A stretch of 64,000 nucleotides of DNA from a virus. Positions 16,452-39,473 of this stretch are shown here, piece by piece. A model generated the notes under the pieces. It was not told where the DNA came from and searched no databases. It saw only the letters and a list, made by a program, of their open reading frames with translations. The position numbers were made by a program, and so were the translations under genes. Numbering within the stretch: position 1 is the first letter of the stretch; every line of letters begins with the position of its first letter. The stretch covers positions 19,777 through 83,776 of IMG/VR virus record IMGVR_UViG_3300010373_000004, one strand, 5' to 3'.

Positions 16452-16493
16452 GAACAGTCGAAACAGGGAGTGTCTGAGCAGACTTACTGATAC

Positions 16494-16541
16494 GCCGAAA
16501 CGTGCCCTCCCATCGGCAACGGTGGGAGGGTTTCGGCATTT
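16494..16541 (+). terminator. Stable hairpin / putative terminator
   Basis: gccgaaa..ccctccca-tcg-gcaa-cgg-tgggaggg-tttcggc followed by attt. Confidence 0.55.
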
Positions 16542-16922
16542 CTGAGACATGAAAGACCTGGAAATACTTTACTTTCTAAAGTATCAATGCCGGCACGGTC
16601 TGAATACCCTACCAGGGTATCCTATGACTGATGCCCTCGTTTCATGCATGGGAAGCACCATAAGCGAGAGCTATCATTCCTGCCATTTTGAGGGCCATAC
16701 AGGCGATTTTCGGCGACGTCCGATAACTGATGCGTTGAGGGCTAGAATCGCCCGTAGAATCGGCTCAAATCAGGTTTGTATTATTGTCAAGTGGAGCACG
16801 GCGGTCGCCTGGCCAGAAAAGCGACCGGCCTTCATAAATAACATCAATGTTTTGGATTGTGTTATCTATGTGGGCGCTCTAGTCCTAGTCCACTAAAATC
16901 AAAAACAGAAAGGGAAGTCCTA

Positions 16923-17156
16923 ATGTCACTCGATCAACAATTGGCCGCATTCAGAACAGACTGGAGCAATGTCAATCGCAAATTGTCATTTGCGCAAAGG
17001 GATGGCCGTAAGTCTAAGACGGCTGAATTGTCCTTGCGAAAGACAATCATCGAGAACATGATCGAAAAGATTAATCTCGATATCAACAAGTGCATCGCAT
17101 CTAGCGACCACTCCAAAGCTTTCTGCAACAATTGCGGGATGCAGGTCGAACGATGA
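16923..17156 (+). CDS. Hypothetical early protein
   Basis: AAGGGA RBS, ATGA overlap with the next gene. Confidence 0.6.
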   Translation: MSLDQQLAAFRTDWSNVNRKLSFAQRDGRKSKTAELSLRKTIIENMIEKINLDINKCIASSDHSKAFCNNCGMQVER

Positions 17157-17335
17157 TCAAAATCAACGTCAAAGAAGTCACAAGCATAGGTGTTTCCCAC
17201 AACATCATCACCGTCACTGAACAACAAGCCATTGTTTTAATCAAAGCTTTGGTCGATGTGATGACTGGTGGTGAGAATATGATGGGCTCTCATCTGCCTG
17301 GACGCGATTTCGAGGTTTCAGTAGAGCGCAAATAA
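17153..17335 (+). CDS. Hypothetical early protein
   Basis: Coupled ORF ending immediately before the hammerhead. Confidence 0.55.
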   Translation: MIKINVKEVTSIGVSHNIITVTEQQAIVLIKALVDVMTGGENMMGSHLPGRDFEVSVERK

Positions 17336-17336
17336 C

Positions 17337-17408
17337 GTCGAAATTACTGGTGGTAAATAGCCGCCAGTAATATAGTGGATTGACATTCCACTACTGATGA
17401 GACTGTCA
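17337..17408 (+). ncRNA. Type II hammerhead ribozyme with stem-I-loop pseudoknot
   Basis: gtc-GAAA-stem III (ttactggtgg/ccgccagtaa)-UA cleavage after 17372-stem I (tagtgga/tccacta)-CUGAUGA-gac; loop tgaca pairs with 3' tgtca. Confidence 0.92.
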
Positions 17409-17430
17409 CAATTTAGCAGAAAGGACAATC

Positions 17431-18753
17431 ATGGCAGGTAGAAAGTGCGCTGAATGCGGTGGGCCGGGTCATAACTCGGCTACTTGCGGACAGTATGCAC
17501 ATTACAAATGTCCAGAATGTGGGCTTACATTTAGTAAATGGCCCGCTCCTAGGTGGCGCGCAGAGGCGTACTGCAAAGGTGACGAAGTAAATCCACACAA
17601 TGAAACAGAGGTTGTGGAATTCGACGGCCGCCCAACACCGAGCGCACGACCTACTAGCAATAGTGGATTCGACCTTGATAAATTAGTCGAGCAAATATCC
17701 ACTGCTGTAGTCGCCGCCAGTGGTTTGTCAAATGTTGAATATGACAAGCTACATAACTGGATCAAAGAAGAAGCGGATTCAAGACTGGAAGCGTATGATA
17801 CGCAGCATATCCAGCTTGTTAATGAACTGCGAGAGTTTACAAACACTCTCAATGATCTCCGCAACAAAGTAGCGGCTACACAAACTCACACCCACACTTT
17901 GCAACTGGCAGAGAATAAGGGTGAGTATAAGTTCGCTACTAATGAGGCGCCCTCTGCAATCTTGCAGGATTTGGTGAAGTATTACAAGATTCGCCAGCTT
18001 GCGATGATTTGGGGACCGTCGGGCAGTGGTAAATCATTCGCCGTCGAACAAGCCTACAAAGTAATTAAGGCTCAGTTCGGATTCAGTGATGATGAATTCA
18101 TCTTTGTACCACTGTCAATGACTCTTGGCATTAATGAGGCTGACCTTTATGGTCGCATGTTGCCGGATGGCTCATTTGTTGAGTCTAAGCTTTGTGTGGC
18201 CTATGAGAAAGGTGGGCTGGTGCTGTGGGATGAAATGGACGGTGCCGACCAAAACTTGTTACTTGTCATTAATAGGATTGTGGAGTATGACGATTTCTAC
18301 AACCCAAAGAACGGCAAGACTTACAAGAGACACAAAAACTTCCATTCATTTGCTGCAACCAACACAAACGGTCGTGGACCGACAGCAGCATACAATAGCC
18401 GCAATCGGCTAGATATGGCAACACTTACACGGTTCAACCAAGCTGTGTATCTCTCTTACAATGAAGATGTGGAGAGGGCCATTCTTTCCGATGAAACATT
18501 GCTGAATGTGGCATGGAAGATCAGAGAATATCTGATGAATAACAATGCACAGGAAGTAATGTCAACCCGACATATCCGGGATATCGCTAAAGGTCTGGCA
18601 GAATTCGATGCTAAGACTCTTTTTGAACGCATGATTTCTACGTGGGCTCCTAATCTGCGCGAGGGCATCGTGCGCCTGCCAGAGTGGGGATATCTCGCTG
18701 CATATAAGGCTAATGTAAATCTGGATTTTCTCTATGAAGAAGTCGAGAACTAG
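17431..18753 (+). CDS. MoxR/CobS-type AAA+ ATPase with N-terminal zinc fingers
   Basis: GPSGSGKS, LWDEMD, AATNT.G.G, RNRLDMATLTRF, MSTR; N-terminal CAECG..GH..TC and CPECG. Confidence 0.88.
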   Translation: MAGRKCAECGGPGHNSATCGQYAHYKCPECGLTFSKWPAPRWRAEAYCKGDEVNPHNETEVVEFDGRPTPSARPTSNSGFDLDKLVEQISTAVVAASGLSNVEYDKLHNWIKEEADSRLEAYDTQHIQLVNELREFTNTLNDLRNKVAATQTHTHTLQLAENKGEYKFATNEAPSAILQDLVKYYKIRQLAMIWGPSGSGKSFAVEQAYKVIKAQFGFSDDEFIFVPLSMTLGINEADLYGRMLPDGSFVESKLCVAYEKGGLVLWDEMDGADQNLLLVINRIVEYDDFYNPKNGKTYKRHKNFHSFAATNTNGRGPTAAYNSRNRLDMATLTRFNQAVYLSYNEDVERAILSDETLLNVAWKIREYLMNNNAQEVMSTRHIRDIAKGLAEFDAKTLFERMISTWAPNLREGIVRLPEWGYLAAYKANVNLDFLYEEVEN

Positions 18754-18994
18754 ATTTACCTGCCTCGATTGTGGCGTGGACACAAGCAGGATCGGGGAGT
18801 ATTATATGCTCTCCGATTCTACTTGGAGTCTAATACACAATAGCAATAAAGGCATGTTGTGTATTGGCTGCGCTGAAAATCGTTTAGGTCGCAAGCTGGT
18901 AGCATCCGACTTCCATGTTTGTACTCTCAACGATTTTCACCATAGCTGTTATATGCGTTCACAAAGATTAGTTGATAGGATGACTAATGGCTGA
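18734..18994 (+). CDS. Cys-rich phage protein
   Basis: CLDCG.DT...EYYM....W....LCIGC.E.RLGRKL pattern, common in phages. Confidence 0.65.
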   Translation: MKKSRTRFTCLDCGVDTSRIGEYYMLSDSTWSLIHNSNKGMLCIGCAENRLGRKLVASDFHVCTLNDFHHSCYMRSQRLVDRMTNG

Positions 18995-19832
18995 TTTTGA
19001 ATACGAACACACTCTCGAAGAAATAAAAGAGTGGGTTCGGAGCGATGATTTGCGGACGGCTATCAAATTAGATAGCAATAAGCGGAACATGGATTCAAAT
19101 GTCATACGGCCTAATGATCCATCATTCTATGGTGCATCATATAAAGAGTCCGTAAGACAGTTATTCGACGGTGTTGATAACTTCAATGATTGGTTGTCTA
19201 GTTCACCGCCGATGGACATTCCCACAAAATCAATCCGGCGCCGTCGTGTTTATAGCGATAGTTCTGGTGAGATTGATATGGACCGCCGATGGGATGATTA
19301 TCCTTTTGAAACATTCCATCATGTGCGCTTTGATAATCCGATTGTCAAGGTCTACATTAATGGTGGTTTTAGAGGGATGGTTCACCAACGCCATATAAAT
19401 GCGTATGGAATGAAGATTTATTCCATCATCAACGCATTAGAGACTGCGGGTAAGATGTGTGAGATTTATCTCTACTACAATACCCTCGGGATTACTGGTG
19501 GAAATGAACTCACATTCACAACAGTGAAGATTAAAGGTTCTGATGAATACGTGGACGGCAAAGTATTAGCTACATGTTTCACCAGTTTCTTCTATCGTCG
19601 TTTCATATTTGCTCTACGTATTAAGGATGCGGACAGCCGCAACGAAACAGCATCGTGGGGCATGGGTTCGTCACAACTTTATAAGCACACTCTTTTACAA
19701 ATATCAGAGGCAGGAGATACTATTTGGTTGGAGGCCACCGACCCGGCTAATTTTGATGGGTCCACATACACAAAGGCAGTCGATGAAATCCTAGAAAAGG
19801 TTATCAAAGGAAGGGACGAGATAAGCGAATGA
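18987..19832 (+). CDS. Putative vWA-like partner of the AAA+ ATPase
   Basis: GEIDMDR, I.ALE.AG...EI, FYRRFIF and WGMG motifs typical of phage CobT-like partners; adjacent to the AAA gene. Confidence 0.6.
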   Translation: MADFEYEHTLEEIKEWVRSDDLRTAIKLDSNKRNMDSNVIRPNDPSFYGASYKESVRQLFDGVDNFNDWLSSSPPMDIPTKSIRRRRVYSDSSGEIDMDRRWDDYPFETFHHVRFDNPIVKVYINGGFRGMVHQRHINAYGMKIYSIINALETAGKMCEIYLYYNTLGITGGNELTFTTVKIKGSDEYVDGKVLATCFTSFFYRRFIFALRIKDADSRNETASWGMGSSQLYKHTLLQISEAGDTIWLEATDPANFDGSTYTKAVDEILEKVIKGRDEISE

Positions 19833-20086
19833 AGGCAGTCACTATAACTGTTGCTTTCACAGCAACTGTGCCTGACGATGTGGAAACCGGGTATTTAGCT
19901 GTTGATTTAGATGTTGACAGAATAAAGCTTGTCAATCATCGGTTTAATTCTTTGTCTAGTGCTAATTGCATTAGTCATTTATCTCTGGAACCGTATCTAA
20001 TAGTCGAAACATATCTTGACAGCTATGTTAAGATATGTCTGTGGGAGTCGCCTACCTACACTGATGATGACAGGCGAGAAAGATAA
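19829..20086 (+). CDS. Hypothetical protein
   Basis: ATGA overlap with the upstream gene. Confidence 0.5.
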   Translation: MKAVTITVAFTATVPDDVETGYLAVDLDVDRIKLVNHRFNSLSSANCISHLSLEPYLIVETYLDSYVKICLWESPTYTDDDRRER

Positions 20087-20187
20087 AACAATTATCACTT
20101 TCTATGTTTCCAATAGGGAACAAGGTCGGGCCGTTCTGCGCATGCTCAATAAGATGCGCGTTAAGGCTTTCATTGTGAGGCCGTGTT

Positions 20188-20406
20188 ATGCCTAATCTCA
20201 CTGAATATCTGGATGCGACCATGCCAGATGTAATCGAGGAAGAACAACTGGAAGAAATGAATCGTGAAGTAACGATTATGCTTCCACCAATGGAAAAGAA
20301 GGATAGGCGTCCTAAGTGCAAGGTCTGCAATAAGACCAACATTTATGGTCGTACAATCAAATTTAGCTATTGCGAACAGCACTGGCCAATGAAAGCGGAA
20401 GGATAA
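20188..20406 (+). CDS. Small hypothetical Cys-containing protein
   Basis: GAGG RBS; CKVC...YCEQH. Confidence 0.5.
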   Translation: MPNLTEYLDATMPDVIEEEQLEEMNREVTIMLPPMEKKDRRPKCKVCNKTNIYGRTIKFSYCEQHWPMKAEG

Positions 20407-20653
20407 ACAAATGCCACGTAAGAACGGACCCACTCATAAGAGGAACGAACGCAAGTATAAGAATAAGAGTCGCCCAGCTTGTCCTGGTGGAAGTTGTGGC
20501 TCTCTTACATGCACTGTTTGTCGATCACCTTGGAACAATCGTAGTTCCAATAAGTAGACGCAGATGGGACTGGAGAGAAATCTCCAGTTTAATGCGGCAG
20601 TTCCGAATTCCAAAGCACGGAACAAATAACAACCGCAGAAGAAAGGAACAGTA

Positions 20654-21451
20654 ATGTTCTCAAACCTTCCTAAGACTCAAAAGACCGCGCAGGAGCAAGT
20701 GCTGGATGCTATGGCAGTCAGTCGTTTTGTTTTCCATCTGACAGGTTCTCGCTTTTTCGGAACTAATCGTGAGGACAGCGATTACGATTTCTTTGTCGAG
20801 GATGATCATTATTCGCCTTTCGTTGGAAATGTTCGCTCATGGCTCATAAGTGAGGCTTTCTATTTGATGGATAAGAGTGATTATCTGTCAACTGTTCAGG
20901 GCATCAATGATGTTTACCAGCATGTTAGTGCGAACATTCAGGTCCAGGTTGTTCAGGATGCTACTAAGAAGCAGCGCATTCAAGACGGGATCAAGAACAG
21001 TCCTGAATGCATGAACGTCATTAAGCAGTGTGACAAGTCTCGCAATAAGGGTTTGTGGGAAGCTCTTTACATCATGGATGCTTTCAAGCCTGCTCCAAAG
21101 ACTCCCGTAAACAAGATTCTCATGATCAAGAATGTTCGTGAGTTGTCTGGATGCGGATTGAAGGAGGCCAAGGATTTCGTTGAGGGAGTTTTGATTCCCA
21201 ATTTCAATGGAACGCCTGCAACAATGGAAGTAAACGCAACAAAGAGCGTTGTTCCTGTTGTGAATTCTTCTCCACTTCCAGTTATCGCATGTGGTCGTTG
21301 CGGACTGTCACTAACGCGGTTCGCCTGTTATCGACAAGATTACCGAAACAATAAGCCGCTGTGCTTTAATTGCTGGATTAATGAACGGACATATGTTGAT
21401 CCGATCTTTGTTTCAGACTGGATAAGCACACGCAACACAACCACCGTTTAG
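20654..21451 (+). CDS. Pol-beta-family nucleotidyltransferase fused to a ribosomal L7/L12 C-terminal-like domain and a zinc finger
   Basis: LTGSRFFG....SDYDF NTase motif; NKILMIKNVRELSGCGLKEAKDFVEG matches the bL12 CTD signature; CGRC...CFNC. Confidence 0.8.
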   Translation: MFSNLPKTQKTAQEQVLDAMAVSRFVFHLTGSRFFGTNREDSDYDFFVEDDHYSPFVGNVRSWLISEAFYLMDKSDYLSTVQGINDVYQHVSANIQVQVVQDATKKQRIQDGIKNSPECMNVIKQCDKSRNKGLWEALYIMDAFKPAPKTPVNKILMIKNVRELSGCGLKEAKDFVEGVLIPNFNGTPATMEVNATKSVVPVVNSSPLPVIACGRCGLSLTRFACYRQDYRNNKPLCFNCWINERTYVDPIFVSDWISTRNTTTV

Positions 21452-21524
21452 CAGAGTGGGCCGAGAGTTTAATCTCTCGGTTTAATGCGGTAAGGTCGTC
21501 ACAAGCCCGACCTAAATACAAACG
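21445..21524 (+). ncRNA. Twister ribozyme, type P5
   Basis: cgttt-AGCAGAGUGG-P1(gccgagag/ctctcggt)-U^AAUGCGGU-P4(aggtc/gacct) with UCACAAGC loop-aaacg; predicted cleavage 21483/21484. Confidence 0.88.
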
Positions 21525-21538
21525 CATTAGGAGTATTT

Positions 21539-21775
21539 ATGCTAGAGGAAGTTCTAGCGGCATCAGAGATTCAACTGAATATGTGCATTGAAAAAGGCAT
21601 CTATTCATTTGAGGATTTGATGAATCTGAGTCTGTGGGAGCGAGATACAGCTTATGCTTGTCATTTCCAGAGACAATTCGGAGTCCATTATCACAAAGCT
21701 GGCGTCCAGTACATCAAAGATGGTGCAAAGATGCCTCCGATAAATCCTGATAAGGAGATTGGTGATGCCTCTTGA
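21539..21775 (+). CDS. Hypothetical protein
   Basis: AGGAG RBS directly after the twister. Confidence 0.65.
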   Translation: MLEEVLAASEIQLNMCIEKGIYSFEDLMNLSLWERDTAYACHFQRQFGVHYHKAGVQYIKDGAKMPPINPDKEIGDAS

Positions 21776-22141
21776 TAAAGAGGGACAACGAATGATGAAG
21801 GATTACCTTGATGAATTAATCAAGGGAAACGTTATCACAATTCCGCGCGAAGTAAATGTTTTTCGCTCAATTTATGAGCGTGCTTATAACGACGGAAAAC
21901 AGATGCAGCGCATCCGTGAGAATCAACAACTGGAAGGATTGGAAATAGCTCTCGCATTAGTATGAGGACTTATACTTCTCATGAACTTGAAACCGATGTT
22001 CTCATTGATGAATATGAGGAAGATATCGTTGTCAAATGGAAGATTGATGGATTCCGAAAGCGTATGACATTCCGTGAAGGTATGGAGTGGACTGCACAAA
22101 CATATGTGGACACTGGCGAAAGCTTCCATCTAGTAAAGTAA

Positions 22142-22531
22142 ATGGCGAAGCAGAGTAGAAAGAGGTACGGTTTCGGCCGTGCAAGAGTAGTTCGAGAATT
22201 CCTTTACATGCTCCAAAGTGGTCGCTGCGCAAGATGCGGCGGTCAAATGCTGGCAGACAAAGTTTCTATTGATCATATCAAGCCTTGGAGCATCTACAAA
22301 AATGGTGATATCCGCAATTTATGTGCGATGCATCCACGATGTAACACTCGGAAGGGTGCTATGGAGATTGAGCCGCCATTTGTAGTGCATGTTTCCATGC
22401 AAGATTGGTTCGGATGGCTAGCAAAATGCTGGTCTAATGATCCAGATCGCTATTGGAGCCACAAAGAGCAAGAAAACATCTTCCAGCATAATAATTATAG
22501 GACGTGGTCGAGGCGTGCTATTGCTGGTTGA
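22142..22531 (+). CDS. HNH endonuclease
   Basis: CARCG...IDHIKP...NL...HPRCN.RKG. Confidence 0.85.
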   Translation: MAKQSRKRYGFGRARVVREFLYMLQSGRCARCGGQMLADKVSIDHIKPWSIYKNGDIRNLCAMHPRCNTRKGAMEIEPPFVVHVSMQDWFGWLAKCWSNDPDRYWSHKEQENIFQHNNYRTWSRRAIAG

Positions 22532-30271: not shown

Positions 30272-30348
30272 TTGGGGATTAAGATCAGTCAGGTAGATGG
30301 CTCGGCCTGGAACCGAGAGGTCGCGAGTTCGAATCTCGCATCCCCAAC
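30272..30348 (+). tRNA. tRNA-Pro(UGG)
   Basis: Cloverleaf; ctcgg-CC TGG AA-ccgag; GTTCGAATC. Confidence 0.9.
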
Positions 30349-30516
30349 AACTACTTCTATTTTAGAATAAAGAGAAAGATAATGAAGCGATTTGAATTGA
30401 CTGGATGGAAGGGAGCTATTGCATCTTGGTATGTGATTTTGTCCCTTGTTTTTGGAGTTGCTACAGAAGTTTATGTAGTTGCAACTCATGCTGTTCCAGC
30501 AGCAAATGCAGTTCAT

Positions 30517-30591
30517 AGCCTAGTGGCCAAGCGGTAAGGCAGGAGACTGTTAATCTTCTATGCGTAGGTTCGAATCCTACCTGGGCTGCCA
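30517..30591 (+). tRNA. tRNA-Asn(GUU), CCA encoded
   Basis: agcctag/ctgggct; CT GTT AA. Confidence 0.93.
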
Positions 30592-30593
30592 AT

Positions 30594-30668
30594 CCTCTGT
30601 TAGTCGAACGGTTTAAGATACCGCCCTGTCAAGGCGTGTGATTACGGGTTCAAATCCCGTACAGAGGG
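30594..30668 (+). tRNA. tRNA-Asp(GUC)
   Basis: cctctgt/acagagg; CT GTC AA. Confidence 0.88.
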
Positions 30669-30723
30669 CTGTCGTTAAACTTTAAGATTTGTGGAAGTTC
30701 ATCGTTATAAACAAATCACTGAT

Positions 30724-30794
30724 GGCGCATTCATCTAATGGCAGGATAAGTGACTTTCAATCATTTCGCAGGGGTTCGATCCCCCTATGCGCTA
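30724..30794 (+). tRNA. tRNA-Glu(UUC)
   Basis: ggcgcat/atgcgct; CT TTC AA. Confidence 0.9.
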
Positions 30795-30804
30795 CTCCGA
30801 ACCG

Positions 30805-30885
30805 CCGGTCTAGAACGGTCATAGTGTATGGTATTGCACGTTAGCTGCGCGAGCTAAAAGTAGAGTTCGAATCTCTTGGAACGGA
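30805..30885 (+). pseudogene. Aberrant tRNA-like element
   Basis: D arm, ttagc-TGCGCGA-gctaa arm and agag-TTCGAAT-ctct arm present; acceptor stem irregular. Confidence 0.55.
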
Positions 30886-30890
30886 AACAT

Positions 30891-30961
30891 GCCCTGATAG
30901 TTAAATGGTATAACAGTAGTCTTGTAAACTTCTGTTCTCAGTTCGATTCTGAGTCGGGGCT
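30891..30961 (+). tRNA. tRNA-Thr(UGU)
   Basis: gccctga/tcggggc; CT TGT AA. Confidence 0.9.
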
Positions 30962-31163
30962 CGATGTTAATAGTAACATTTCACAATCAAGGTATGGATA
31001 TAAACCTTCCACCAGATGAACAGTTTTGCGACTATAACGTAGAAGTTATGGTTACTACTAGTCCTACATCTGTAAAAACTATCTATAAAGGTAAAGTTAA
31101 GAAACACTATCGAAAAGATGGCTGGAAGAAATTGCTAGAGTTGGCAACAAAGCAACTCTGAAC

Positions 31164-31236
31164 GCTCCTGTGGTATAAAGGTCAATTATACTTGGTCTAC
31201 ACCCAAGTGATTCTAGTTCGAATCTAGACGGGAGTA
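31164..31236 (+). tRNA. tRNA-Val(UAC)
   Basis: gctcctg/cgggagt; cttgg-TC TAC AC-ccaag. Confidence 0.88.
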
Positions 31237-31301
31237 CAGTGACTCAGCCATCATGCACTTGATAATTTCTATCACAGTGGAACATTATAAGGATAACCAT
31301 A

Positions 31302-31386
31302 GGAAATATGCTGGAGTGGTTTAACAGGCACGCCTGCTAAGCGTGTGACCGTAACTGGTCCCTGAGTTCGAATCTCAGTATTTCCG
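31302..31386 (+). tRNA. tRNA-Ser(GCU)
   Basis: ggaaata/tatttcc; CT GCT AA; long variable arm. Confidence 0.93.
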
Positions 31387-31494
31387 CAGAGTCTTAGGGT
31401 TCGTGGTATAGAGGGCAGACTCTTTCAAAACACAGCATACTTACTGATAGTTTTAAGTTCGCGTGAGTTCTATCATTAAAAACTCTACGAAAAT

Positions 31495-31581
31495 GGAATT
31501 GTGGCCGAGTGGTTTAAGGCAATAGTCTTGAAAACTATCGACCGCGCGAGCGGTCCTAGGGTTCGAATCCCTACAATTCCT
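31495..31581 (+). tRNA. tRNA-Ser(UGA)
   Basis: ggaattg/caattcc; CT TGA AA; long variable arm. Confidence 0.93.
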
Positions 31582-31598
31582 CTTGACAAATAAGTCAT

Positions 31599-31669
31599 GT
31601 GGTGCTAAGATAATGGTAGTCCCGCAGTTTGTGACACTGCGCGTTCCCGTTCGAACCGGGAGCATCACT
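31599..31669 (+). tRNA. tRNA-His(GUG)
   Basis: gtggtgc/gcatcac; gcagt-TT GTG AC-actgc. Confidence 0.8.
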
Positions 31670-31686
31670 CTTTTAAGGTTTATTGA

Positions 31687-31935
31687 ATGTCTAACGCATG
31701 GGATTTAACAACATCTGGTGCCTTAACCAGATTTAATAGTAATGTGAATACAAAAAGCACTTATGGACCGTCAACAGCGAGTATCGGTCCCAACAGTCTC
31801 AGTGCTTCTGGATATGTTGATCCTACTATTGTAACAGCGAGTTTAGTTGAACCTTCTCAATATACTAGTCCGGCGGATAACGTCGCCAAAAAGTCATACC
31901 CCGGTTTCGAAATCGACGGAGTTAATTACATTTAG
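31687..31935 (+). CDS. Hypothetical protein in the tRNA cluster
   Basis: AAGG RBS; 82 aa. Confidence 0.55.
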   Translation: MSNAWDLTTSGALTRFNSNVNTKSTYGPSTASIGPNSLSASGYVDPTIVTASLVEPSQYTSPADNVAKKSYPGFEIDGVNYI

Positions 31936-32138
31936 AAGTTGGTCGTATTGTTGGTCCGACCATCCTCTTGGTAAAGTTCATATAGCTTGGTCGGATGATA
32001 GAAGCATTGCTTGTAAGAATATTTATTTTGTTCCGCAACATTTTAGAGTTGGGGTTCTAGGATATCTTCCTATGGAAAAGCAAAAGAATCTTTGCAAGCA
32101 TTGCGCCAAGGCTCTTGAATTAGAAAGAAGGAATATGT

Positions 32139-32276
32139 ATGCCCCTTCAAACAGGCACTTCACAGAAAGCAATTAGTAGTAATATAGCGACAGAAGTCAA
32201 GGCAGGAAAGCCACAAAAGCAAGCTGTGGCAATTGCAATGAGTAAAGCTGGTAAGAGCACTTCTAAAAAGAAGTAA
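32139..32276 (+). CDS. Small basic phage protein (MPL..G.SQKAIS.NI...[15 protein letters not shown] family)
   Basis: 45 aa ORF below the ORF-track cutoff; AAGGA RBS; recognisable widespread phage peptide pattern. Confidence 0.75.
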
Positions 32277-32286
32277 CTTACCTCAT

Positions 32287-32357
32287 GCGCCTGTGATTAA
32301 ATGGTATAATGGGTGCCTTCCAAGCATCATTTGAGAGTTCGATTCTCTCCAGACGCA
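32287..32357 (+). tRNA. tRNA-Gly(UCC)
   Basis: gcgcctg/cagacgc; CT TCC AA. Confidence 0.9.
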
Positions 32358-32461
32358 CAATGGTTTACTAGTGACAAACAACGCTTTGCAATGATTAGGA
32401 ACTAGTCGTCTAAGTAGCCTGTGAGTCGCGCATAAAGACGTTAATTGTGGAGACTCTTAAA

Positions 32462-32544
32462 GCCGCTGTGGTGGAACAGTAGACACGCTTGCCTTAGAAG
32501 CAAGTATTCTTATGAATGTACGAGTGCGAATCTTGTCAGCGGTA
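32462..32544 (+). tRNA. tRNA-Leu(UAG)
   Basis: gccgctg/cagcggt; CT TAG AA; T-loop TGCGAAT. Confidence 0.88.
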
Positions 32545-32545
32545 C

Positions 32546-32818
32546 ATGAGAACTATTAAAGATTCTGAGAGAGATAGAAGGAACGCTGATCTTAAAAGAA
32601 ATGTAGTTGATGCTTTTAAACTAGCTAAAGGTTGCATTGATTGTGGGTACAAGGAAAATGCAGCAGCACTAGAATTTGATCACTTACCAGGCTTTAGGAA
32701 AAATGCTACAGTAGCTTCTCTAATGTATAGAAGTCTTAAAGTAATTGTTGAAGAAATAAAGAAATGTGAAGTTGTATGCGCTAATTGTCATGCAATAAGA
32801 ACGTATAATAGACGATAA
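32546..32818 (+). CDS. HNH endonuclease
   Basis: CIDCG...LEFDH...EEIKKCEVVCANCH. Confidence 0.85.
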   Translation: MRTIKDSERDRRNADLKRNVVDAFKLAKGCIDCGYKENAAALEFDHLPGFRKNATVASLMYRSLKVIVEEIKKCEVVCANCHAIRTYNRR

Positions 32819-32819
32819 T

Positions 32820-32902
32820 GCTTCCTTGGTGGAACGGTAGACACCCTGGACTTAAAATCCAGTGTTCGAAAGGACGTGTCGGTTCGAATCCGACAGGAAG
32901 TA
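32820..32902 (+). tRNA. tRNA-Leu(UAA)
   Basis: gcttcct/aggaagt; CT TAA AA. Confidence 0.93.
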
Positions 32903-32932
32903 CGGGTTTAATAAACCTAAATTAAAATTATA

Positions 32933-33154
32933 ATGGAGGCCCATGTAGTGGCTAAGTTATGTTCAAGCAACCTAGAAAGTTGCGAATTTGATTCCGAAAC
33001 TGGAGTCTTAGTAATAGATTTTGTTGCAGGTTCTACTTATAAGTATAAGAATGTTCCTGCTAACATTTATCACGGCTTATTAGCTGCTGAGTCTCATGGA
33101 AAATTCTTCCATGAAAATATTAGGGATAAGTTCCCTTATCATAGAGTAGCTTAG
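32933..33154 (+). CDS. KTSC domain protein
   Basis: SSNL...FD...L.I.F..G.TYKY.NVP..IY.GLL.AES.GKFF..NIR. Confidence 0.9.
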   Translation: MEAHVVAKLCSSNLESCEFDSETGVLVIDFVAGSTYKYKNVPANIYHGLLAAESHGKFFHENIRDKFPYHRVA

Positions 33155-33166
33155 TCTACTCTTAGT

Positions 33167-33240
33167 GCTTCAATAGCCAAGTGATCTAAGGCGCTTGTCT
33201 GCAAAACAAGTATTCGTCGGTTTGAATCCGACTTGAAGCT
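33167..33240 (+). tRNA. tRNA-Cys(GCA)
   Basis: gcttcaa/ttgaagc; CT GCA AA. Confidence 0.9.
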
Positions 33241-33314
33241 CATTGGTTTGTTAGTTTTCCAAAAGACACATAGTCTCTTTGTGATTTACACGGTCTAGAA
33301 AAACTAACACAAAT

Positions 33315-33387
33315 GCCTCATTGGTCTAATGGACAGGGCGGCAGCCTTCTAAGCTGTTCGGTACAGGTTCGAATCCTGTATGAGGTA
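33315..33387 (+). tRNA. tRNA-Arg(UCU)
   Basis: gcctcat/atgaggt; CT TCT AA. Confidence 0.92.
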
Positions 33388-33417
33388 TATTAGCTAATCA
33401 AGGACTCAATTAGGTCA

Positions 33418-33807
33418 ATGAACAGCAATGAGCAAAAAGCTTTGCAATTAGGAATGCCTTTTGGTACAGCCTGTAATAGATTAAGAAAAAATATACTTTT
33501 TAAACTTCTAGTAGATTTTAAATTAAATGTATGTTTTCATTGTAATAGAGATATTACTAATGTAGACGAACTGAGTATTGAACACAAACAACCTTGGTTT
33601 AAAACAAATGCTGATTTATTTTGGGATTTAGATAATATAGCATTTAGTCACTACTCATGTAATTCAGGTGCTGCAAATCATGACAATCAGAGAATACTTA
33701 AAACCCATTGTATAAATGGGCATGAATATACAGAAGCAAATACGTCTAGGGTACTAATTCGCGGTAAAGTAACTCGTCGATGTAAAAAGTGTTTAAGTAA
33801 TCGTTAA
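33418..33807 (+). CDS. HNH endonuclease with C-terminal KTHC.NGH zinc finger
   Basis: CFHC...SIEHKQPW...NIAFSHYSCN; KTHCINGHEY...RCKKC. Confidence 0.85.
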   Translation: MNSNEQKALQLGMPFGTACNRLRKNILFKLLVDFKLNVCFHCNRDITNVDELSIEHKQPWFKTNADLFWDLDNIAFSHYSCNSGAANHDNQRILKTHCINGHEYTEANTSRVLIRGKVTRRCKKCLSNR

Positions 33808-33822
33808 ATTATCGTATGACAC

Positions 33823-34050
33823 ATGACAGAAAAGCAATTTAAAGATAATAGTATTGTCTGGTGGAGTTGGGTCTTTCTTTGGTTAATACTGGAAGGATTG
33901 GGATTCTCACGGAAAACTCCGTGGGCGCCACTTACTGAGTATGTTTGGGCCATCGAAGATAGAAATCACTTGGCGCAGTACGGTTTCTTAGTTCTATTTG
34001 CGGCTCTGTTAGTCCACTTTGTCGGTAGGTGGACTGGACACAACGATTAA
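33823..34050 (+). CDS. Small membrane protein
   Basis: Two hydrophobic Trp-rich segments. Confidence 0.6.
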   Translation: MTEKQFKDNSIVWWSWVFLWLILEGLGFSRKTPWAPLTEYVWAIEDRNHLAQYGFLVLFAALLVHFVGRWTGHND

Positions 34051-34052
34051 AT

Positions 34053-34126
34053 GGTCCTGTGGTGTACGGGTGCGTGCATAAGTGTCTTATAAACACCAGG
34101 TTCTAGTTCGACTCTAGGCAGGACTA
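34053..34126 (+). tRNA. tRNA-Ile(UAU)
   Basis: ggtcctg/caggact; CT TAT AA. Confidence 0.85.
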
Positions 34127-34131
34127 CGTAT

Positions 34132-34204
34132 GCTCCGATAGCTCAGATGGTAGAGCGCATGTCTGAAAAACATGAGGTCGTCGGATCGATACCGACTCGG
34201 AGCA
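34132..34204 (+). tRNA. tRNA-Phe(GAA)
   Basis: gctccga/tcggagc; CT GAA AA; T-loop ATCGATA. Confidence 0.9.
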
Positions 34205-34210
34205 CTTATT

Positions 34211-34282
34211 GCTCGCTTACGCTAATGGTTGGCGACAGTTCTGATAAAGCTGTGTGAGGTAGTCCGATTCTACCAGCGAGTA
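34211..34282 (+). tRNA. tRNA-Ile(GAU)
   Basis: gctcgct/agcgagt; CT GAT AA; T-loop TCCGATT. Confidence 0.85.
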
Positions 34283-34299
34283 CAAAGCTAAAATAGCAC

Positions 34300-34328
34300 T
34301 TGACATCGTTCCTCCAGTATGGTATTAT
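34300..34328 (+). promoter_or_regulatory. Sigma70-type promoter inside the tRNA cluster
   Basis: TTGACA-17-TATTAT with TG. Confidence 0.72.
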
Positions 34329-34342
34329 AGATAGGTCGTTGA

Positions 34343-34414
34343 GCGCCTCTGACGTAACGGTAGCGTAGCGGACTTTTAATCCGACAAGTAAGAGTTCGAA
34401 TCTCTTGGGGCGTA
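34343..34414 (+). tRNA. tRNA-Lys(UUU)
   Basis: gcgcctc/ggggcgt; CT TTT AA. Confidence 0.9.
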
Positions 34415-34423
34415 CAAAAAGAA

Positions 34424-34657
34424 ATGCTAAAAACAAAAGAAGCAGTAAAAAGAACAGCTACCTTCAAAGCTTTTGAAATTGAAGGTCTTTGGTATCGTGA
34501 AACCTGTAATTTCTGTGGTAAGGAAATAGATCACTTCTATAAATTAGAGTTTGACGATACATATCCAATAAAGGAAAATCAGGATGGTCCTAATAGACCA
34601 TACATTTATCTTTGTTTGGAACATTACGAACGGTTAACACATGCTCCAGTAGCATAA
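34424..34657 (+). CDS. Cys-rich hypothetical protein
   Basis: CNFCG...LCLEH; 3' end overlaps tRNA-Arg(UCG). Confidence 0.55.
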   Translation: MLKTKEAVKRTATFKAFEIEGLWYRETCNFCGKEIDHFYKLEFDDTYPIKENQDGPNRPYIYLCLEHYERLTHAPVA

Positions 34658-34715
34658 TGGAAAGTGTCTCTGCCTTCGAAGCAGGTGGGTACGGGTTCGA
34701 ATCCTGTCTGGAGTA
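34643..34715 (+). tRNA. tRNA-Arg(UCG)
   Basis: gctccag/ctggagt; CT TCG AA. Confidence 0.9.
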
Positions 34716-34759
34716 CGCAAATGGTTACTCAATAGACTCTCGTTTGATGGAATTAGAAT

Positions 34760-34830
34760 GGGCCATTAAGTTAATGGGAAACTTCCTGCTTTGCACGCAG
34801 GGTTTGAGAGTTCGATTCTCTCATGGTCCA
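34760..34830 (+). tRNA. tRNA-Ala(UGC)
   Basis: gggccat/atggtcc with G3:U70; TT TGC AC. Confidence 0.9.
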
Positions 34831-34831
34831 C

Positions 34832-34904
34832 TGCGGGATAGTGTAATAGCAACATGCCAGCCTCATAAGCTGTGCGACTATGGGTGCAAATCCCATTTCC
34901 GCTA
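34832..34904 (+). tRNA. tRNA-Met(CAU), 1:72 mismatch (initiator-like)
   Basis: tgcggga/ttccgct; CT CAT AA; lacks the GGG:CCC anticodon stem. Confidence 0.85.
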
Positions 34905-35042
34905 CTGAGTTGTCAGAGTCTTTAAAACTGTCTGTCAGTTACCAATCTGACATTAATTAAAATTGGGTGCGCGAATAGAATTAACGAGGCGTCGCTACAC
35001 GCCTACACAGCGAGTAATGTCGGTGAGCTATTCCGGTAAAAT

Positions 35043-35356: not shown

Positions 35357-35420
35357 CCGCGCCCTCAAACATGCCAAACAGTTCACTAGCTCTGTATAAA
35401 AAGCTAGTTTTATTTTGTCT

Positions 35421-37469: not shown

Positions 37470-38357
37470 ATGCAGCGTAATCAAAAGATTATATTCATGC
37501 GAGGACTGCCAGGTTCTGGTAAGTCCACATGGGCAAAAGCAAAGGTACAAGAAGAACCAAACATCTGGTATCGTATCAATCGAGATACGCTGCGAGAAAT
37601 GATTGTAGAACCAAAGCTATCCATTCAAGAGAAGAAGGTAGCGAAGTGTCGTGACGCTCTAATTGTTCATGCAATTCAAGATGGTCAAAATGTAATCATT
37701 GATGATACTAATCTTGATATAGATTCTATTCAGGCTCATGTAAAAGACTTGTTGGTGAATACTGTCCATACATTTACGGTGGATTTTGAAGTTCAAGATT
37801 TTACATGGGTTCCACTGGAGGAATGTATAAAGCGTGATAAGAATAGACGTGGTGAGAGTGTTGGTGAGCACGTTATCAGGCGCATGCATCACCAGTATCT
37901 TGCTCCAAAACAAGATAAGCCTGCATATAATCCTTCACTGCCGTGGGCTATTATCTGTGATCTGGATGGAACCTTAGCTAAGATTATAGATAGAAGTCCT
38001 TATGAAGCAAAGTATGAGACTGACGTTCCACGGGAATCACTTACTAGTTTATTGCGAGCGCATTACTTCCACTATAACGATAAGATTGTATTTGTTTCGG
38101 CACGCGAAGATCAGTACAGAGAAAAGACTATTGACTGGCTACGGAATACAGCTAATTTTTGGGACCTCGCCTTCGATCTTATCATGCGAAAGACAGAGGA
38201 CTTTCGTAACGATGCAATCGTCAAAGAAGAAATATACGAAAATCAAATAAAGCCTAATTACAATGTTAGGTTTGTGTTAGATGACAGGGATAGAGTTGTA
38301 CAAATGTGGAGAGATAAGGGACTAGATTGTCTCCAGGTTGATTATGGCGAATTTTAA
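37470..38357 (+). CDS. pseT: T4-type polynucleotide 5'-kinase / 3'-phosphatase
   Basis: GLPGSGKST, INRD.LR, IIDDTN; HAD domain CDLDGTLA, SAR, R.D..VK, LDDR. Confidence 0.93.
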   Translation: MQRNQKIIFMRGLPGSGKSTWAKAKVQEEPNIWYRINRDTLREMIVEPKLSIQEKKVAKCRDALIVHAIQDGQNVIIDDTNLDIDSIQAHVKDLLVNTVHTFTVDFEVQDFTWVPLEECIKRDKNRRGESVGEHVIRRMHHQYLAPKQDKPAYNPSLPWAIICDLDGTLAKIIDRSPYEAKYETDVPRESLTSLLRAHYFHYNDKIVFVSAREDQYREKTIDWLRNTANFWDLAFDLIMRKTEDFRNDAIVKEEIYENQIKPNYNVRFVLDDRDRVVQMWRDKGLDCLQVDYGEF

Positions 38358-38543
38358 TTCAGTTGTAGCTTGGGATAAAGACTCAATGGCTACATTAAAT
38401 AGAATTGTTGGTAATTTGGAGAACAAACTGTCATCACTAAAGAGACTTCGCCTCCAGTGTCATGAACAAACTCCTGATGTTAAGAAACCTGTCGTTGATC
38501 TAAACGACATACTAAAAGAAATACTAATGAGAGATATAACTTA

Positions 38544-39473
38544 GTGCTAGCTATACCAAGTTACGTAAAGATAGCTCACGCTGGTGATGGTATTGCTGCT
38601 AATGCTTTTATCGGCACCGAAATTATCATTCAAGAAAAGATAGATGGTTCGCAATTCGGCTTCGGTTGGAACGAGAATGGAGATTTGACTTGCCGGTCTA
38701 AAGGTAAAGTTCAAGATATCGACGCTCCTGATAAGATGTTCACACTAGCAGTAGAGTATTGTCGAGGACTGGAAACACGACTTCCGGACACATATTTCTA
38801 CTGTGAGTATTTGAATAAACCAAAGCACAATGTTCTTTGCTACGACCATACACCAAAGCACAATTTAGTTCTTTTTGATGTACTTCAACCAGATGGACAG
38901 TTTATTGGCAAAGATAGAAAATCACTAGAGTATTCAGCAGAGGTTCTTGGAATAGATGTTGTTCCAGAACTGTATCGTGGTCCAGTTGATTTACAACTGA
39001 TCAAGGATATGACTGAAACTCCACCTGAAAGTTTCTTAGGTCGAGAAAAGATTGAAGGTGTTGTCTGCAAGAACTATGATCAAGTAGTAAACTTCTATGG
39101 CCATCTTTTTCCTTTAATGGTAAAGCATGTTCGTGAAGCATTTAAGGAAAAGCACTCTATTGAGTGGTCATCACCAGAGAAGGCATCCACTAGACTTAAT
39201 GCACAGACATTCGTCCAGTCTTTTAAAACAGATGGTCGCTGGCAGAAGGCAATCATCCATGCCAGAGAGAATGGAACGTTAACCAACTCTCCAAAGGATA
39301 TCGGTCCTCTTATTAGAATTATTCAAGAGGATATCAAGGAAGAAGAACGAGAATATATAAAGGCAACACTGTATAGTCTTTATATAGATGATGTTCTTAG
39401 AAATGCTATATCAGGATTTCCTGAGTGGTACAAGAATAAACTATTAGAAGGTGCGTTTGAAAAAGTAGCATGA
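38544..39473 (+). CDS. RNA ligase (Rnl2-like)
   Basis: QEKIDGSQF, CEY, LFDV, VVP, EGVVCK, MVK....FKE. Confidence 0.88.
   Translation: MLAIPSYVKIAHAGDGIAANAFIGTEIIIQEKIDGSQFGFGWNENGDLTCRSKGKVQDIDAPDKMFTLAVEYCRGLETRLPDTYFYCEYLNKPKHNVLCYDHTPKHNLVLFDVLQPDGQFIGKDRKSLEYSAEVLGIDVVPELYRGPVDLQLIKDMTETPPESFLGREKIEGVVCKNYDQVVNFYGHLFPLMVKHVREAFKEKHSIEWSSPEKASTRLNAQTFVQSFKTDGRWQKAIIHARENGTLTNSPKDIGPLIRIIQEDIKEEEREYIKATLYSLYIDDVLRNAISGFPEWYKNKLLEGAFEKVA

What the first reader, a model, noticed from the sequence alone, without database searches (positions are those of the whole stretch)
17373..21483. Ribozyme-bracketed 4.1-kb early cassette in a phage that encodes RNA end-healing and ligation enzymes
Seen: a hammerhead and a twister on the same strand flank the AAA+ ATPase, its partner, small ORFs and the NTase-L7/L12 fusion, and I saw no strong terminator between them. 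Known: both ribozymes leave 5'-OH and 2',3'-cyclic phosphate ends, which T4-type Pnk converts to ligatable ends for an RNA ligase; both enzymes are encoded at 37470-39473. Inference: self-excision of a 4111-nt polycistronic RNA, protected by a 5'-OH or possibly circularised. This would be a protein-independent mRNA segmentation system, and I know of no description of one in a myovirus.
Basis: inference. Interest (0 to 1): 0.85.

Follow-up and report, generated by a model that had tools for sequence, protein, structure and literature searches.

The report
Three ribozymes punctuating a phage operon
A soil phage places three self-cutting RNA motifs (one hammerhead, two twisters) right after stop codons in one gene block, which probably chops a long message into shorter ones; this layout has been known in phages since 2011, so it is a clean new example rather than a new phenomenon.

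Summary
The twister at 21450-21510 passes Rfam's cut-off (39.7 bits, cut-off 37.6). The hammerhead at 17337-17408 is a complete type II motif: the only site in the window that fits a strict descriptor, with 0 hits in 200 shuffles. Rfam's Hammerhead_II model does not score it.

It lies inside the proposed unit, so the predicted products are 3218 nt (17373-20590) and 893 nt (20591-21483), not one 4111-nt RNA.

Each ribozyme fills an intergenic gap and starts within 1 nt of, or overlaps, the upstream stop codon. In other phage contigs 38 of 108 twisters do the same, against 261 of 5400 random positions.

Pnk and an RNA ligase are real, but they sit inside the tRNA cluster. Among 42 twister-pattern phage records, 1 encodes an RNA ligase, 1 a Pnk phosphatase domain, none RtcB and none both. 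The predicted termini pair no better than shuffles. No RNA data exist.

Perreault et al. 2011 already described ribozymes flanking genes in prophages, proposed mRNA segmentation, and looked for circles without finding them. This scan has noted the same layout on other DNA (27 notes, at least 25 genomes). Verdict: a new member of a known kind.

The parts
17132..17335 (+). 67-aa ORF whose stop codon (17333-17335) lies 1 nt before the hammerhead
   Evidence: ORF list, sequence; no Pfam family
17337..17408 (+). Type II hammerhead motif. Predicted cleavage after A17 (17372|17373). Stem III 17343-17371, stem I 17373-17393, core CUGAUGA 17394-17400, stem II GUC 17337-39 / GAC 17401-03, pseudoknot 17381-85 with 17404-08.
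   Evidence: Descriptor scan: 1 site in the window, 0 hits in 200 dinucleotide shuffles, 1 hit in 100 mononucleotide shuffles. Fold z = -4.73. Features match the type II definition in PMC3088659. No Rfam hammerhead match.
17373..20590 (+). Predicted segment A (3218 nt) between the hammerhead and twister 1 cuts. Genes: AAA_5 ATPase 17431-18753, phrog_6053 18734-18994, DUF7192 18987-19832, small ORFs 19829-20086, 20188-20406 and 20411-20557.
   Evidence: Cleavage sites inferred from the motifs. Gene families. Overlapping stop/start codons within 17431-20086.
20559..20620 (+). Twister-P5 ribozyme 1. Predicted cleavage 20590|20591. Starts 1 nt after the TAG of the 48-aa ORF 20411-20557.
   Evidence: 37.1 bits, E 3.3e-5 in 5 kb and 4.2e-4 in the window. 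Fold z = -5.76. T1 pairs as UGG/CCA and T2 as GC, as in other phage twisters.
20591..21483 (+). Predicted segment B (893 nt), carrying the single 265-aa gene 20654-21451 (NTase-like N-terminus, L7/L12 C-terminal-domain piece, Cys-rich tail).
   Evidence: Pfam Ribosomal_L12 at residues 152-179. The hGS..DxD motif is conserved in the only full-length relative, P0002.
21450..21510 (+). Twister-P5 ribozyme 2. Predicted cleavage 21483|21484. Overlaps the TAG (21449-21451) of the 265-aa gene.
   Evidence: 39.7 bits against a gathering score of 37.6. Fold z = -3.99. T1 is GUC-free GUG/CAC, the commonest phage variant (45 of 115); T2 is a G-U variant (10 of 115).
21539..21775 (+). First ORF (78 aa) downstream of twister 2; start of the next predicted segment.
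   Evidence: ORF list; no family
37470..39473 (+). Pnk (37470-38357) and RNA ligase, PF09414 type (38544-39473). Context only; no link to the ribozymes was found.
   Evidence: Pfam. They lie inside the tRNA cluster at 30274-42002. No association with twisters in other phage records.

Best explanation
A co-directional accessory-gene block of an 83.8-kb soil phage is punctuated by three cis-acting self-cleaving ribozymes: one type II hammerhead and two type-P5 twisters. Each fills an intergenic gap of about 90 nt. Each begins within 1 nt of, or overlaps, the upstream stop codon, and ends shortly before the next ribosome-binding site.

During or just after transcription each ribozyme would cut itself. 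That would turn a long polycistronic RNA into shorter mRNAs: one ending at 17372, then 17373-20590, then 20591-21483, then one starting at 21484.

Because both ribozyme permutations are open at a helix other than the ones next to the cut, every upstream product would keep its stop codon and end in a stable hairpin (hammerhead stem III or twister P1) with a 2',3'-cyclic phosphate. Every downstream product would begin with a 5'-OH, followed directly (hammerhead stem I) or within about 10 nt (twister P4) by a hairpin.

The likely benefit is that neighbouring cistrons are uncoupled in stability and translation.

Shown: the motifs, their positions and their recurrence in other phages. Inferred: co-transcription, cleavage in vivo, and the effect on stability or translation.
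For: Motifs:
- Twister 2 is above Rfam's cut-off. Twister 1 is 0.5 bit under it, with E 3.3e-5. Both keep P1, P2 and P4 and a complementary T1 triplet. Across 115 parsed phage twisters, T1 is fully complementary in 66, against 12-15 in slid registers.
- The hammerhead is a unique descriptor hit, with 0 hits in 200 shuffles. It has the loop-I/3'-tail pseudoknot that PMC3088659 reports for most type II hammerheads.
- The descriptor is validated: its only other hit in 104 phage loci (865 kb) is scored by Rfam Hammerhead_II at 37.6 bits.

Position:
- All three ribozymes abut a stop codon.
- In other phage contigs 38 of 108 twisters do so, against 261 of 5400 random positions.

Recurrence:
- 14 of 90 sources, the window among them, carry two or more same-strand regex twisters.
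- G010, G011 and G012 carry Rfam-confirmed pairs or arrays.
- L086, from a complete unrelated phage, has a Hammerhead_II and a Twister-P5 1.4 kb apart, both flush with stop codons.

Product ends: predicted terminal hairpins of -18.0, -13.9 and -14.1 kcal/mol at the 3' ends, and -9.6, -7.1 and -7.7 kcal/mol at the 5' ends.

Literature: clustered hammerheads flanking genes cleave in vitro, and in E. coli for one Agrobacterium array, and were proposed to segment phage transcripts (PMC3088659). The review PMC6765202, section 13, says the same for twisters.
Against: - No RNA evidence of any kind for this phage.
- Rfam's Hammerhead_II model does not score the hammerhead, even at E<=10 in 151 nt. Its cleavage triplet is AUA and its 15.2-16.2 pair is U-A, where that model's consensus shows GAAAC...GUC (alignment).
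- Twister 1 is formally below the gathering score.
- No relative of this phage was found, so conservation of the three sites cannot be tested.
- None of 27 scanned loci encoding relatives of the flanked NTase-like gene has a ribozyme.
- Whether one promoter drives the whole block is unknown. The promoter and terminator scans were at chance level.
- The benefit of cleavage is untested, here and in the literature.
Confidence: 0.7

Rival explanations
1. One reading: the RNA between the outer ribozymes is excised, and its 5'-OH and 2',3'-cyclic phosphate ends are healed by the phage Pnk and sealed by the phage RNA ligase. This would give a protected or circular mRNA, a natural counterpart of the synthetic Tornado system.
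For: The chemistry is compatible: ribozyme ends are Pnk substrates, and both enzymes are encoded. In the synthetic Tornado system, two flanking twisters plus the cellular RtcB ligase give circles (PMC7324948, passage read). PMC3088659 raised circular products as a possibility.
Against: - An internal twister splits the 4111-nt unit.
- Termini pair no better than shuffles for any of the three candidate segments.
- Joining twister 2's 5' half to twister 1's 3' half would mismatch T1 (GUG against CCA, read from the sequence).
- Pnk and the ligase sit in the tRNA cluster. That fits the textbook tRNA-repair role of T4 Pnk and RNA ligase (recalled, not tested).
- In 42 twister-pattern phage records: RNA_ligase 1, HAD_PNKP 1, RtcB 0, never two together.
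- Perreault et al. report that they looked for circular or spliced products and detected none.
Confidence: 0.04
2. Only the two twisters are active. The 17337-17408 element is a terminator-like or stabilising hairpin pair that resembles a hammerhead by descent or by chance and does not cleave.
For: No Rfam hammerhead family scores it. Stem II is only 3 bp. CTGATGA alone occurs 22 times in the window. The stem III hairpin of up to 12 bp follows a stop codon directly, as a terminator would.
Against: The full descriptor (all core nucleotides, three helices in type II order, NUH triplet) occurs once in the window and 0 times in 200 shuffles. [quoted passage not shown] No U-tract follows the hairpin. 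An equally built hammerhead in L086 passes Rfam.
Confidence: 0.15
3. The ribozymes are passengers of mobile accessory-gene cassettes, or decaying relics. They mark cassette boundaries but give the phage no benefit in mRNA processing.
For: The flanked genes differ between phages, and at least 33 of the 42 ORFs that precede twisters have no Pfam family. The NTase-like gene's relatives lack ribozymes in 27 of 27 scanned loci, and the closest relative sits behind a tRNA gene instead. An HNH endonuclease gene lies 0.6 kb downstream.
Against: All helices and tertiary pairs are intact in both twisters, with compensatory T1 variants. The tight, recurrent placement at stop codons (35% against 4.8%) argues for selection on an mRNA-level role. 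No repeats or cassette scars were looked for, so mobility is untested.
Confidence: 0.1

Closest known systems
Clustered hammerhead ribozymes flanking single genes or short gene blocks in prophages (Perreault et al. 2011, PMC3088659; passages read)
   Same: Several self-cleaving ribozymes on one strand, in intergenic gaps of a phage gene block, flanking non-conserved accessory genes. Type II hammerhead with a loop-I/3'-tail pseudoknot. The proposed role is processing into operon- or gene-length mRNAs, and circular products were already considered there.
   Different: Here the set is mixed (one hammerhead, two type-P5 twisters). The host genome is an 83.8-kb tRNA-rich phage with terminal repeats from a soil metagenome, not a prophage. 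One flanked gene is an NTase-like/L12-domain protein. No cleavage assay exists for this locus.
Type-P5 twister ribozyme (Rfam RF02684); twisters near phage genes and in 3' UTRs (review PMC6765202, section 13; passages read)
   Same: Both window elements align over all 58 model positions with P1, P2, P4 and the UAAUGC cleavage region. They are placed just downstream of coding regions.
   Different: Twister 1 scores 0.5 bit under Rfam's gathering score and has a 12-nt P4 loop. Twister 2 has a G-U in T2. The stop-codon-flush placement was quantified here; I did not find it stated in the passages I read.
Ribozyme clusters that mix classes (hammerhead, twister, pistol and others). The review describes this as the basis for discovering new ribozyme classes (PMC6765202). 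The attribution to Weinberg et al. 2015 is recalled, and that paper was not read.
   Same: Different ribozyme classes occupy equivalent slots in one operon. I saw this in L025 (pistol plus twisters) and in L086 (hammerhead plus twister).
   Different: Nothing essential; the window is one more instance.
Synthetic analogues: pRAP, ribozyme-assisted polycistronic co-expression (PMC9872166, abstract read), and Tornado, two twisters plus RtcB giving circular RNA (PMC7324948, passage read)
   Same: pRAP converts a polycistronic mRNA co-transcriptionally into monocistrons with ribozymes, which is what I infer here. Tornado uses two flanking twisters, as around the 265-aa gene.
   Different: Both are engineered. 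Tornado's ends are designed to pair for ligation, whereas the window's predicted ends do not pair beyond chance.

Membership tests
Hammerhead ribozyme, type II | Conserved core: C3 U4 G5 A6 N7 G8 A9 and G12 A13 A14 | tested here: met
   CUGAUGA at 17394-17400 and GAA at 17340-17342
Hammerhead ribozyme, type II | Three helices in type II order (stem II open; stems III and I closed by loops), with the A15.1-U16.1 and G10.1-C11.1 pairs | tested here: met
   Stem III up to 12 bp, stem I 7 bp, stem II 3 bp (GAC/GUC). One descriptor hit, 0 in 200 shuffles.
Hammerhead ribozyme, type II | Cleavage triplet NUH directly 5' of stem I | tested here: met
   AUA at 17370-17372. That AUA is an efficient triplet is recalled, not tested.
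Hammerhead ribozyme, type II | Pseudoknot of 4 or more bp between loop I and the nucleotides immediately 3' of stem II (PMC3088659) | tested here: met
   UGACA 17381-85 with UGUCA 17404-08, 5 bp, starting at the first base after stem II. Definition read.
Hammerhead ribozyme, type II | Match to the curated covariance model (Rfam RF02276, gathering score 37 bits) | tested here: not met
   No match at E<=10. The same model scores the analogous L086 element at 37.6 bits.
Hammerhead ribozyme, type II | Self-cleavage activity | not testable with these tools
   Needs in vitro transcription or end-specific RNA-seq
Twister ribozyme, type P5 (RF02684) | Score at or above Rfam's gathering score over the full model | tested here: met
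   Twister 2: 39.7 against 37.6 bits, positions 1-58 of 58
Twister ribozyme, type P5 (RF02684) | Same criterion for twister 1 | tested here: not met
   37.1 against 37.6 bits, positions 1-58 of 58, E 3.3e-5. Short by 0.5 bit.
Twister ribozyme, type P5 (RF02684) | P1, P2 and P4 helices and the UAAUGC cleavage region | tested here: met
   Both elements. The invariant columns of the 12-sequence alignment are kept in both.
Twister ribozyme, type P5 (RF02684) | Tertiary pseudoknots T1 and T2 (assignment recalled from the published structures, then checked by covariation) | tested here: met
   T1: twister 2 GUG/CAC, twister 1 UGG/CCA. 66 of 115 phage twisters are fully complementary, against 12-15 in slid registers. 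T2: GC (twister 1), GU wobble (twister 2).
Ribozyme-punctuated phage operon (Perreault 2011 type) | Two or more self-cleaving ribozymes on one strand, in intergenic gaps of a co-directional phage gene block, flanking one or a few genes | tested here: met
   Three motifs on the + strand at 17337, 20559 and 21450, among + strand ORFs
Ribozyme-punctuated phage operon (Perreault 2011 type) | All ribozymes are transcribed in one RNA and cleave | not testable with these tools
   No RNA data could be obtained (see Tried and rejected)
Ribozyme-plus-ligase circular RNA (Tornado-like) | Ends brought together by base pairing for the ligase | tested here: not met
   The cofold gain and duplex energy of the termini lie within the shuffle distribution for all three segments
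Ribozyme-plus-ligase circular RNA (Tornado-like) | Ligase or healing enzymes co-occur with the ribozymes across phages | tested here: not met
   RNA_ligase 1 of 42, HAD_PNKP 1 of 42, RtcB 0 of 42 records. Host enzymes were not testable.

The most novel reading that the evidence does not exclude
The ribozyme-released segments, in particular the 893-nt one-gene RNA between the two twisters, are healed by the phage Pnk and sealed by the phage Rnl2-type ligase (or by a host RtcB) into circular, exonuclease-resistant mRNAs. That would be a natural counterpart of the engineered Tornado system. A milder variant: because each ribozyme starts at the stop codon, a terminating ribosome masks its first helix, so cleavage is gated by translation of the upstream gene.
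Probability: 0.04. Interest if true: 0.85.

Novelty: new member of a known kind. Interest (0 to 1): 0.27.

Why it matters
The biological purpose of ribozyme clusters in phages is still untested. The 2019 review (PMC6765202) calls bacterial ribozyme roles largely elusive.

This locus is a compact, clean test case. It has three ribozymes of two classes, defined predicted cut sites, and products that would all carry hairpin-capped ends. It sits in a phage that also encodes RNA end-healing and sealing enzymes.

It also shows that Rfam's Hammerhead_II model can miss a structurally complete type II hammerhead. And it adds a number to a layout rule: 35% of the phage twisters examined sit flush with a stop codon, against 4.8% of random positions.

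None of this changes the current picture. It adds one example and one quantified regularity.

Tried and rejected
My own error. Until I rejected the hammerhead, because I had tried only type I and type III topologies by eye and relied on Rfam's silence and on a fold of 17366-17430 (z = -0.47) that left out stem III and the 5' strand of stem II. The descriptor test then overturned my rejection.

Rejected candidates:
- Hammerhead_3 candidate at window 20032-20094 (13.4 bits, E 0.35): no credible stem II by eye.
- Hammerhead at 16457-16548 with a 53-nt insert at N7: a descriptor that allows such an insert gives 124 hits in 100 shuffled windows, which is chance level.

Relatives:
- No near match in INPHARED phages.
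- tblastn of the AAA protein gave only relatives under 60% identity.
- No relatives of the 265-aa or AAA proteins in viral contigs.
- One full-length relative of the 265-aa protein. A metagenome scan instead returned a 1020-bp contig, L028.
- L039 of the 28 metagenome loci was not scanned for RNA families.

Expression: no RNA holder listed. The laid contigs were DNA: the probable source sample, and a 166-nt identical contig in a second soil run. The other parts of the stretch had no cover in that second run.

Structure: AlphaFold2 on the 2-sequence alignment gave mean pLDDT 35.4. It is unusable, so no fold search was run.

The MAFFT alignment A2 put P4 in inconsistent registers. I therefore built no covariance model and parsed the tertiary pairs with anchored regular expressions instead. 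That regex set also catches some non-twisters, and in the UCCAAAGC subtype the T1 triplet is ambiguous in register by one base.

Not all of them are Rfam-confirmed twister carriers: G001 and G003 had no Rfam hit.

Felletti et al. 2017 (twisters in 3' UTRs) is cited by the review but is not in the searchable library, so I did not read it. Supplementary files of PMC3088659 (its figures S1-S3 on the arrays) were not opened. 'Myovirus' and 'early' were not tested.

Full report
WHAT WAS CLAIMED. From this it inferred self-excision of one 4111-nt RNA that the phage's Pnk and RNA ligase might heal or circularise, and it knew of no precedent.

THE TWISTERS. An Rfam scan of the whole window at gathering thresholds gave 25 tRNAs and one ribozyme, a Twister-P5 at 21450-21510 (+), 39.7 bits against a cut-off of 37.6. 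Permissive scans of 17000-22000 and of the whole window added a second Twister-P5 at 20559-20620 (+). It scores 37.1 bits, 0.5 bit below the cut-off, with E 3.3e-5 in 5 kb. The window is bases 19777-83776 of an 83,776-bp virus record with direct terminal repeats, and that whole genome has just these two twisters. A scan of the remaining 19.9 kb found no RNA family at E<=0.1.

Both elements align over all 58 model positions and fold into P2/P1 and P4 (z = -5.76 and -3.99). The U|A cleavage sites, read from the alignments, are 20590|20591 and 21483|21484.

I recalled the T1 and T2 tertiary pairs from the published structures and tested them by covariation on 115 distinct twisters parsed from phage contigs. 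T1 is fully complementary in 66, against 12-15 when either side is slid by one base. Twister 2 carries GUG/CAC (45 of 115). Twister 1 carries UGG/CCA, a subtype of 9 (twister 1 included) that my parser placed one base out of register. T2 is GC in twister 1 (86 of 115) and the wobble GU in twister 2 (10 of 115). Both therefore look structurally complete.

THE HAMMERHEAD. I first rejected it. No Rfam hammerhead family matched at E<=10, the best Hammerhead_3 hit in the genome lay elsewhere (13.4 bits), CTGATGA occurs 22 times in the window, and I could not draw stems II and III. That was my error, because I had tried only type I and type III topologies.

Read that way, the sequence gives:
- GUC, GAA
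- a stem III hairpin of up to 12 bp
- A17 at 17372
- a 7-bp stem I hairpin
- CUGAUGA, then GAC, with the G10.1-C11.1 and A15.1-U16.1 pairs in place
- a 5-bp pseudoknot between loop I and the bases directly 3' of stem II

A descriptor that encodes the core, the three helices in type II order and the NUH rule finds this one site in the window on both strands. It finds none in 200 dinucleotide-preserving shuffles and one in 100 mononucleotide shuffles with stem III relaxed to 3 bp. The 79-nt element folds with z = -4.73.

Perreault et al. 2011 define type II by these features. [quoted passage not shown]

Rfam's Hammerhead_II model still gives no match, either on the genome or on a 151-nt slice. 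As a check on my descriptor, its only other hit in 104 phage loci (865 kb) is L086 2129-2189. Rfam scores that site as Hammerhead_II at 37.6 bits, cut-off 37. That element has the same build. It differs from the window's in having the GAAAC...GUC that the model's consensus shows, where the window has U-A at 15.2-16.2 and an AUA triplet. That this difference explains Rfam's miss is my inference.

I put the chance that 17337-17408 is a genuine hammerhead at about 85%. Activity is untested.

ANATOMY. All ORFs from 15606 to beyond 23870 that matter here are on the + strand. Stop and start codons overlap within 17431-20086. Each ribozyme fills a gap of about 90 nt.
- The hammerhead starts 1 nt after the stop at 17333-35 and ends 12 nt before an AAAGGA that lies 5 nt upstream of the ATG at 17431.
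- Twister 1 starts 1 nt after the TAG at 20555-57.
- Twister 2 overlaps the TAG at 21449-51.

The predicted products are 17373-20590 and 20591-21483. The first (3218 nt) carries an AAA_5 ATPase assigned to the PHROG 'porphyrin biosynthesis', a phrog_6053 protein, a DUF7192 protein and three small ORFs. The second (893 nt) carries one 265-aa gene. That RNA would therefore exist only if twister 1 failed to cut.

The predicted product ends are hairpins: -18.0, -13.9 and -14.1 kcal/mol at the 3' ends, and -9.6, -7.1 and -7.7 at the 5' ends. The consensus promoter and terminator scans were at chance level.

IS THE LAYOUT GENERAL? Two degenerate twister patterns found 13 viral contigs and at least 119 (capped, 80 loci returned). 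Rfam on the whole records behind the first 13 loci (12 searched, L011 not held) gave twisters in 7 and same-strand pairs or trios in 3.

In a regex survey:
- 14 of 90 sources, the window among them, have two or more twisters on one strand, mostly 300-950 nt apart; one has five, another four.
- 38 of 108 twisters (window excluded) have a frame of at least 40 codons whose stop ends within -2 to +5 nt of the ribozyme, against 261 of 5400 random positions on the same strands.
- The 42 distinct ORFs in that position are small (46-373 aa, median 91). Their Pfam matches were DUF932 in 4 members and ArdcN, MPTase-PolyVal, GP88, VWA_2 and VWA in 1 each, so at least 33 have none.

Mixed arrays occur. 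L025 holds a twister-like element, a pistol and two Twister-P5 within 1.2 kb. L086, from a complete 56-kb phage, holds a Hammerhead_II and a Twister-P5 (69.8 bits) 1.4 kb apart, each flush with a stop codon.

The flanked gene is not what is conserved. Of 28 metagenome loci encoding relatives of its NTase-like domain, 27 were scanned and none has a ribozyme. The closest (53% identity) has a tRNA gene just upstream.

THE Pnk/LIGASE LINK AND CIRCLES. Pnk (kinase plus HAD phosphatase) and a PF09414 RNA ligase are real, but they lie inside the cluster of 25 tRNA genes. That is the setting of the tRNA-repair role known for T4 (recalled).

Among 42 twister-pattern records of at least 30 kb, RNA_ligase occurs in 1, HAD_PNKP in 1 other and RtcB in 0. 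All three counts are 0 among the 20 records that are at least 90% complete. This set has no ribozyme-free control, and host enzymes are invisible to the test.

The first and last 40 nt of each candidate segment pair no better than shuffles. Joining twister 2's 5' half to twister 1's 3' half would mismatch T1. No RNA run holds the stretch (see Tried and rejected).

Perreault et al. wrote that cleavage followed by ligation could give spliced or circular products, but that they detected neither. Circularisation is not excluded. I found nothing that supports it.

WHAT IS KNOWN. Perreault et al. [quoted passage not shown] The 2019 review says that bacterial ribozymes of different classes lie close to each other and to phage genes, that hammerheads and twisters have been suggested to process polycistronic transcripts, and that their roles remain largely elusive (PMC6765202).

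The engineered pRAP and Tornado systems do on purpose what is inferred or speculated here.

This scan's own earlier notes hold 27 findings of the kind in at least 25 genomes. The follow-ups shown to me file it under the same precedent. I did not check those notes.

VERDICT. This is a new member of a known kind. Best explanation: 0.7. Interest: 0.27.

Noticed in passing
window 16452-16548: The intergenic gap one gene block upstream is strongly structured (z = -3.96), with a GC-rich hairpin of about 18 bp. It reads as a type II hammerhead only if about 53 nt are inserted at core position N7. A descriptor that allows this gives 124 hits per 100 shuffled windows, so it is not supported as a ribozyme. 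It could be a terminator-like hairpin or an uncatalogued module in the ribozyme slot.
   Followed up: partly
L056-L135 and L004-L016 (viral contigs): Twister-P5 ribozymes in phage contigs sit flush with the stop codon of a preceding, usually small, ORF far more often than chance: 38 of 108 against 261 of 5400 random positions. Same-strand arrays of 2-5 twisters spaced about 300-950 nt apart are common (13 of 89 loci).
   Followed up: yes
L086 2128-2197 and 3601-3658: An unrelated, complete 56-kb phage has an Rfam-confirmed type II hammerhead (37.6 bits) and a Twister-P5 (69.8 bits) on one strand, 1.4 kb apart, each directly after a stop codon. The flanked 322-aa ORF has no Pfam family. A DUF6908 gene follows.
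   Followed up: partly
L025 346-1561: A dense mixed ribozyme array in a 6.5-kb viral contig: a twister-like element (43.6 bits to twister-P1, below its cut-off), a pistol (64.7 bits) and two Twister-P5 (56.4 and 49.6 bits), all within 1.2 kb on one strand.
   Followed up: no
window 17337-17408: Rfam's Hammerhead_II model (RF02276) gives no match at E<=10 to a structurally complete type II hammerhead with an AUA triplet and a 12-bp stem III. This is a sensitivity gap that would make Rfam-based censuses undercount such hammerheads.
   Followed up: partly
window 20654-21451 and L028: The 265-aa protein (NTase-like hGS..DxD N-terminus, a piece of the ribosomal L7/L12 C-terminal domain at residues 152-179, Cys-rich C-terminus) is nearly an orphan: one full-length relative (53% identity) in 5.8 billion clusters. 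The closest metagenome relative (L028, also 53% identity) lies directly behind a tRNA gene. The AlphaFold2 model was unusable (pLDDT 35).
   Followed up: partly
window 20411-20557: A 48-aa, very basic, Cys-rich ORF (possible zinc ribbon) with no family ends 1 nt before twister 1.
   Followed up: no
window 30274-42002: 25 tRNA genes in two clusters, with Pnk, an RNA ligase and a nucleoside 2-deoxyribosyltransferase-like gene (36678-37163, just under the Pfam cut-off) embedded among them. This looks like a tRNA supply-and-repair island.
   Followed up: no
window 22142-22531: An HNH endonuclease gene (14 PHROG families matched, best E 9.2e-11) lies 0.6 kb downstream of twister 2. Whether the ribozyme-flanked gene belongs to a mobile cassette was not tested.
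   Followed up: no
window 20586-20751: A 166-nt contig identical to the window occurs in a second soil metagenome run from another study (X2), so the same phage, or a very close one, is present in a second sample.
   Followed up: no
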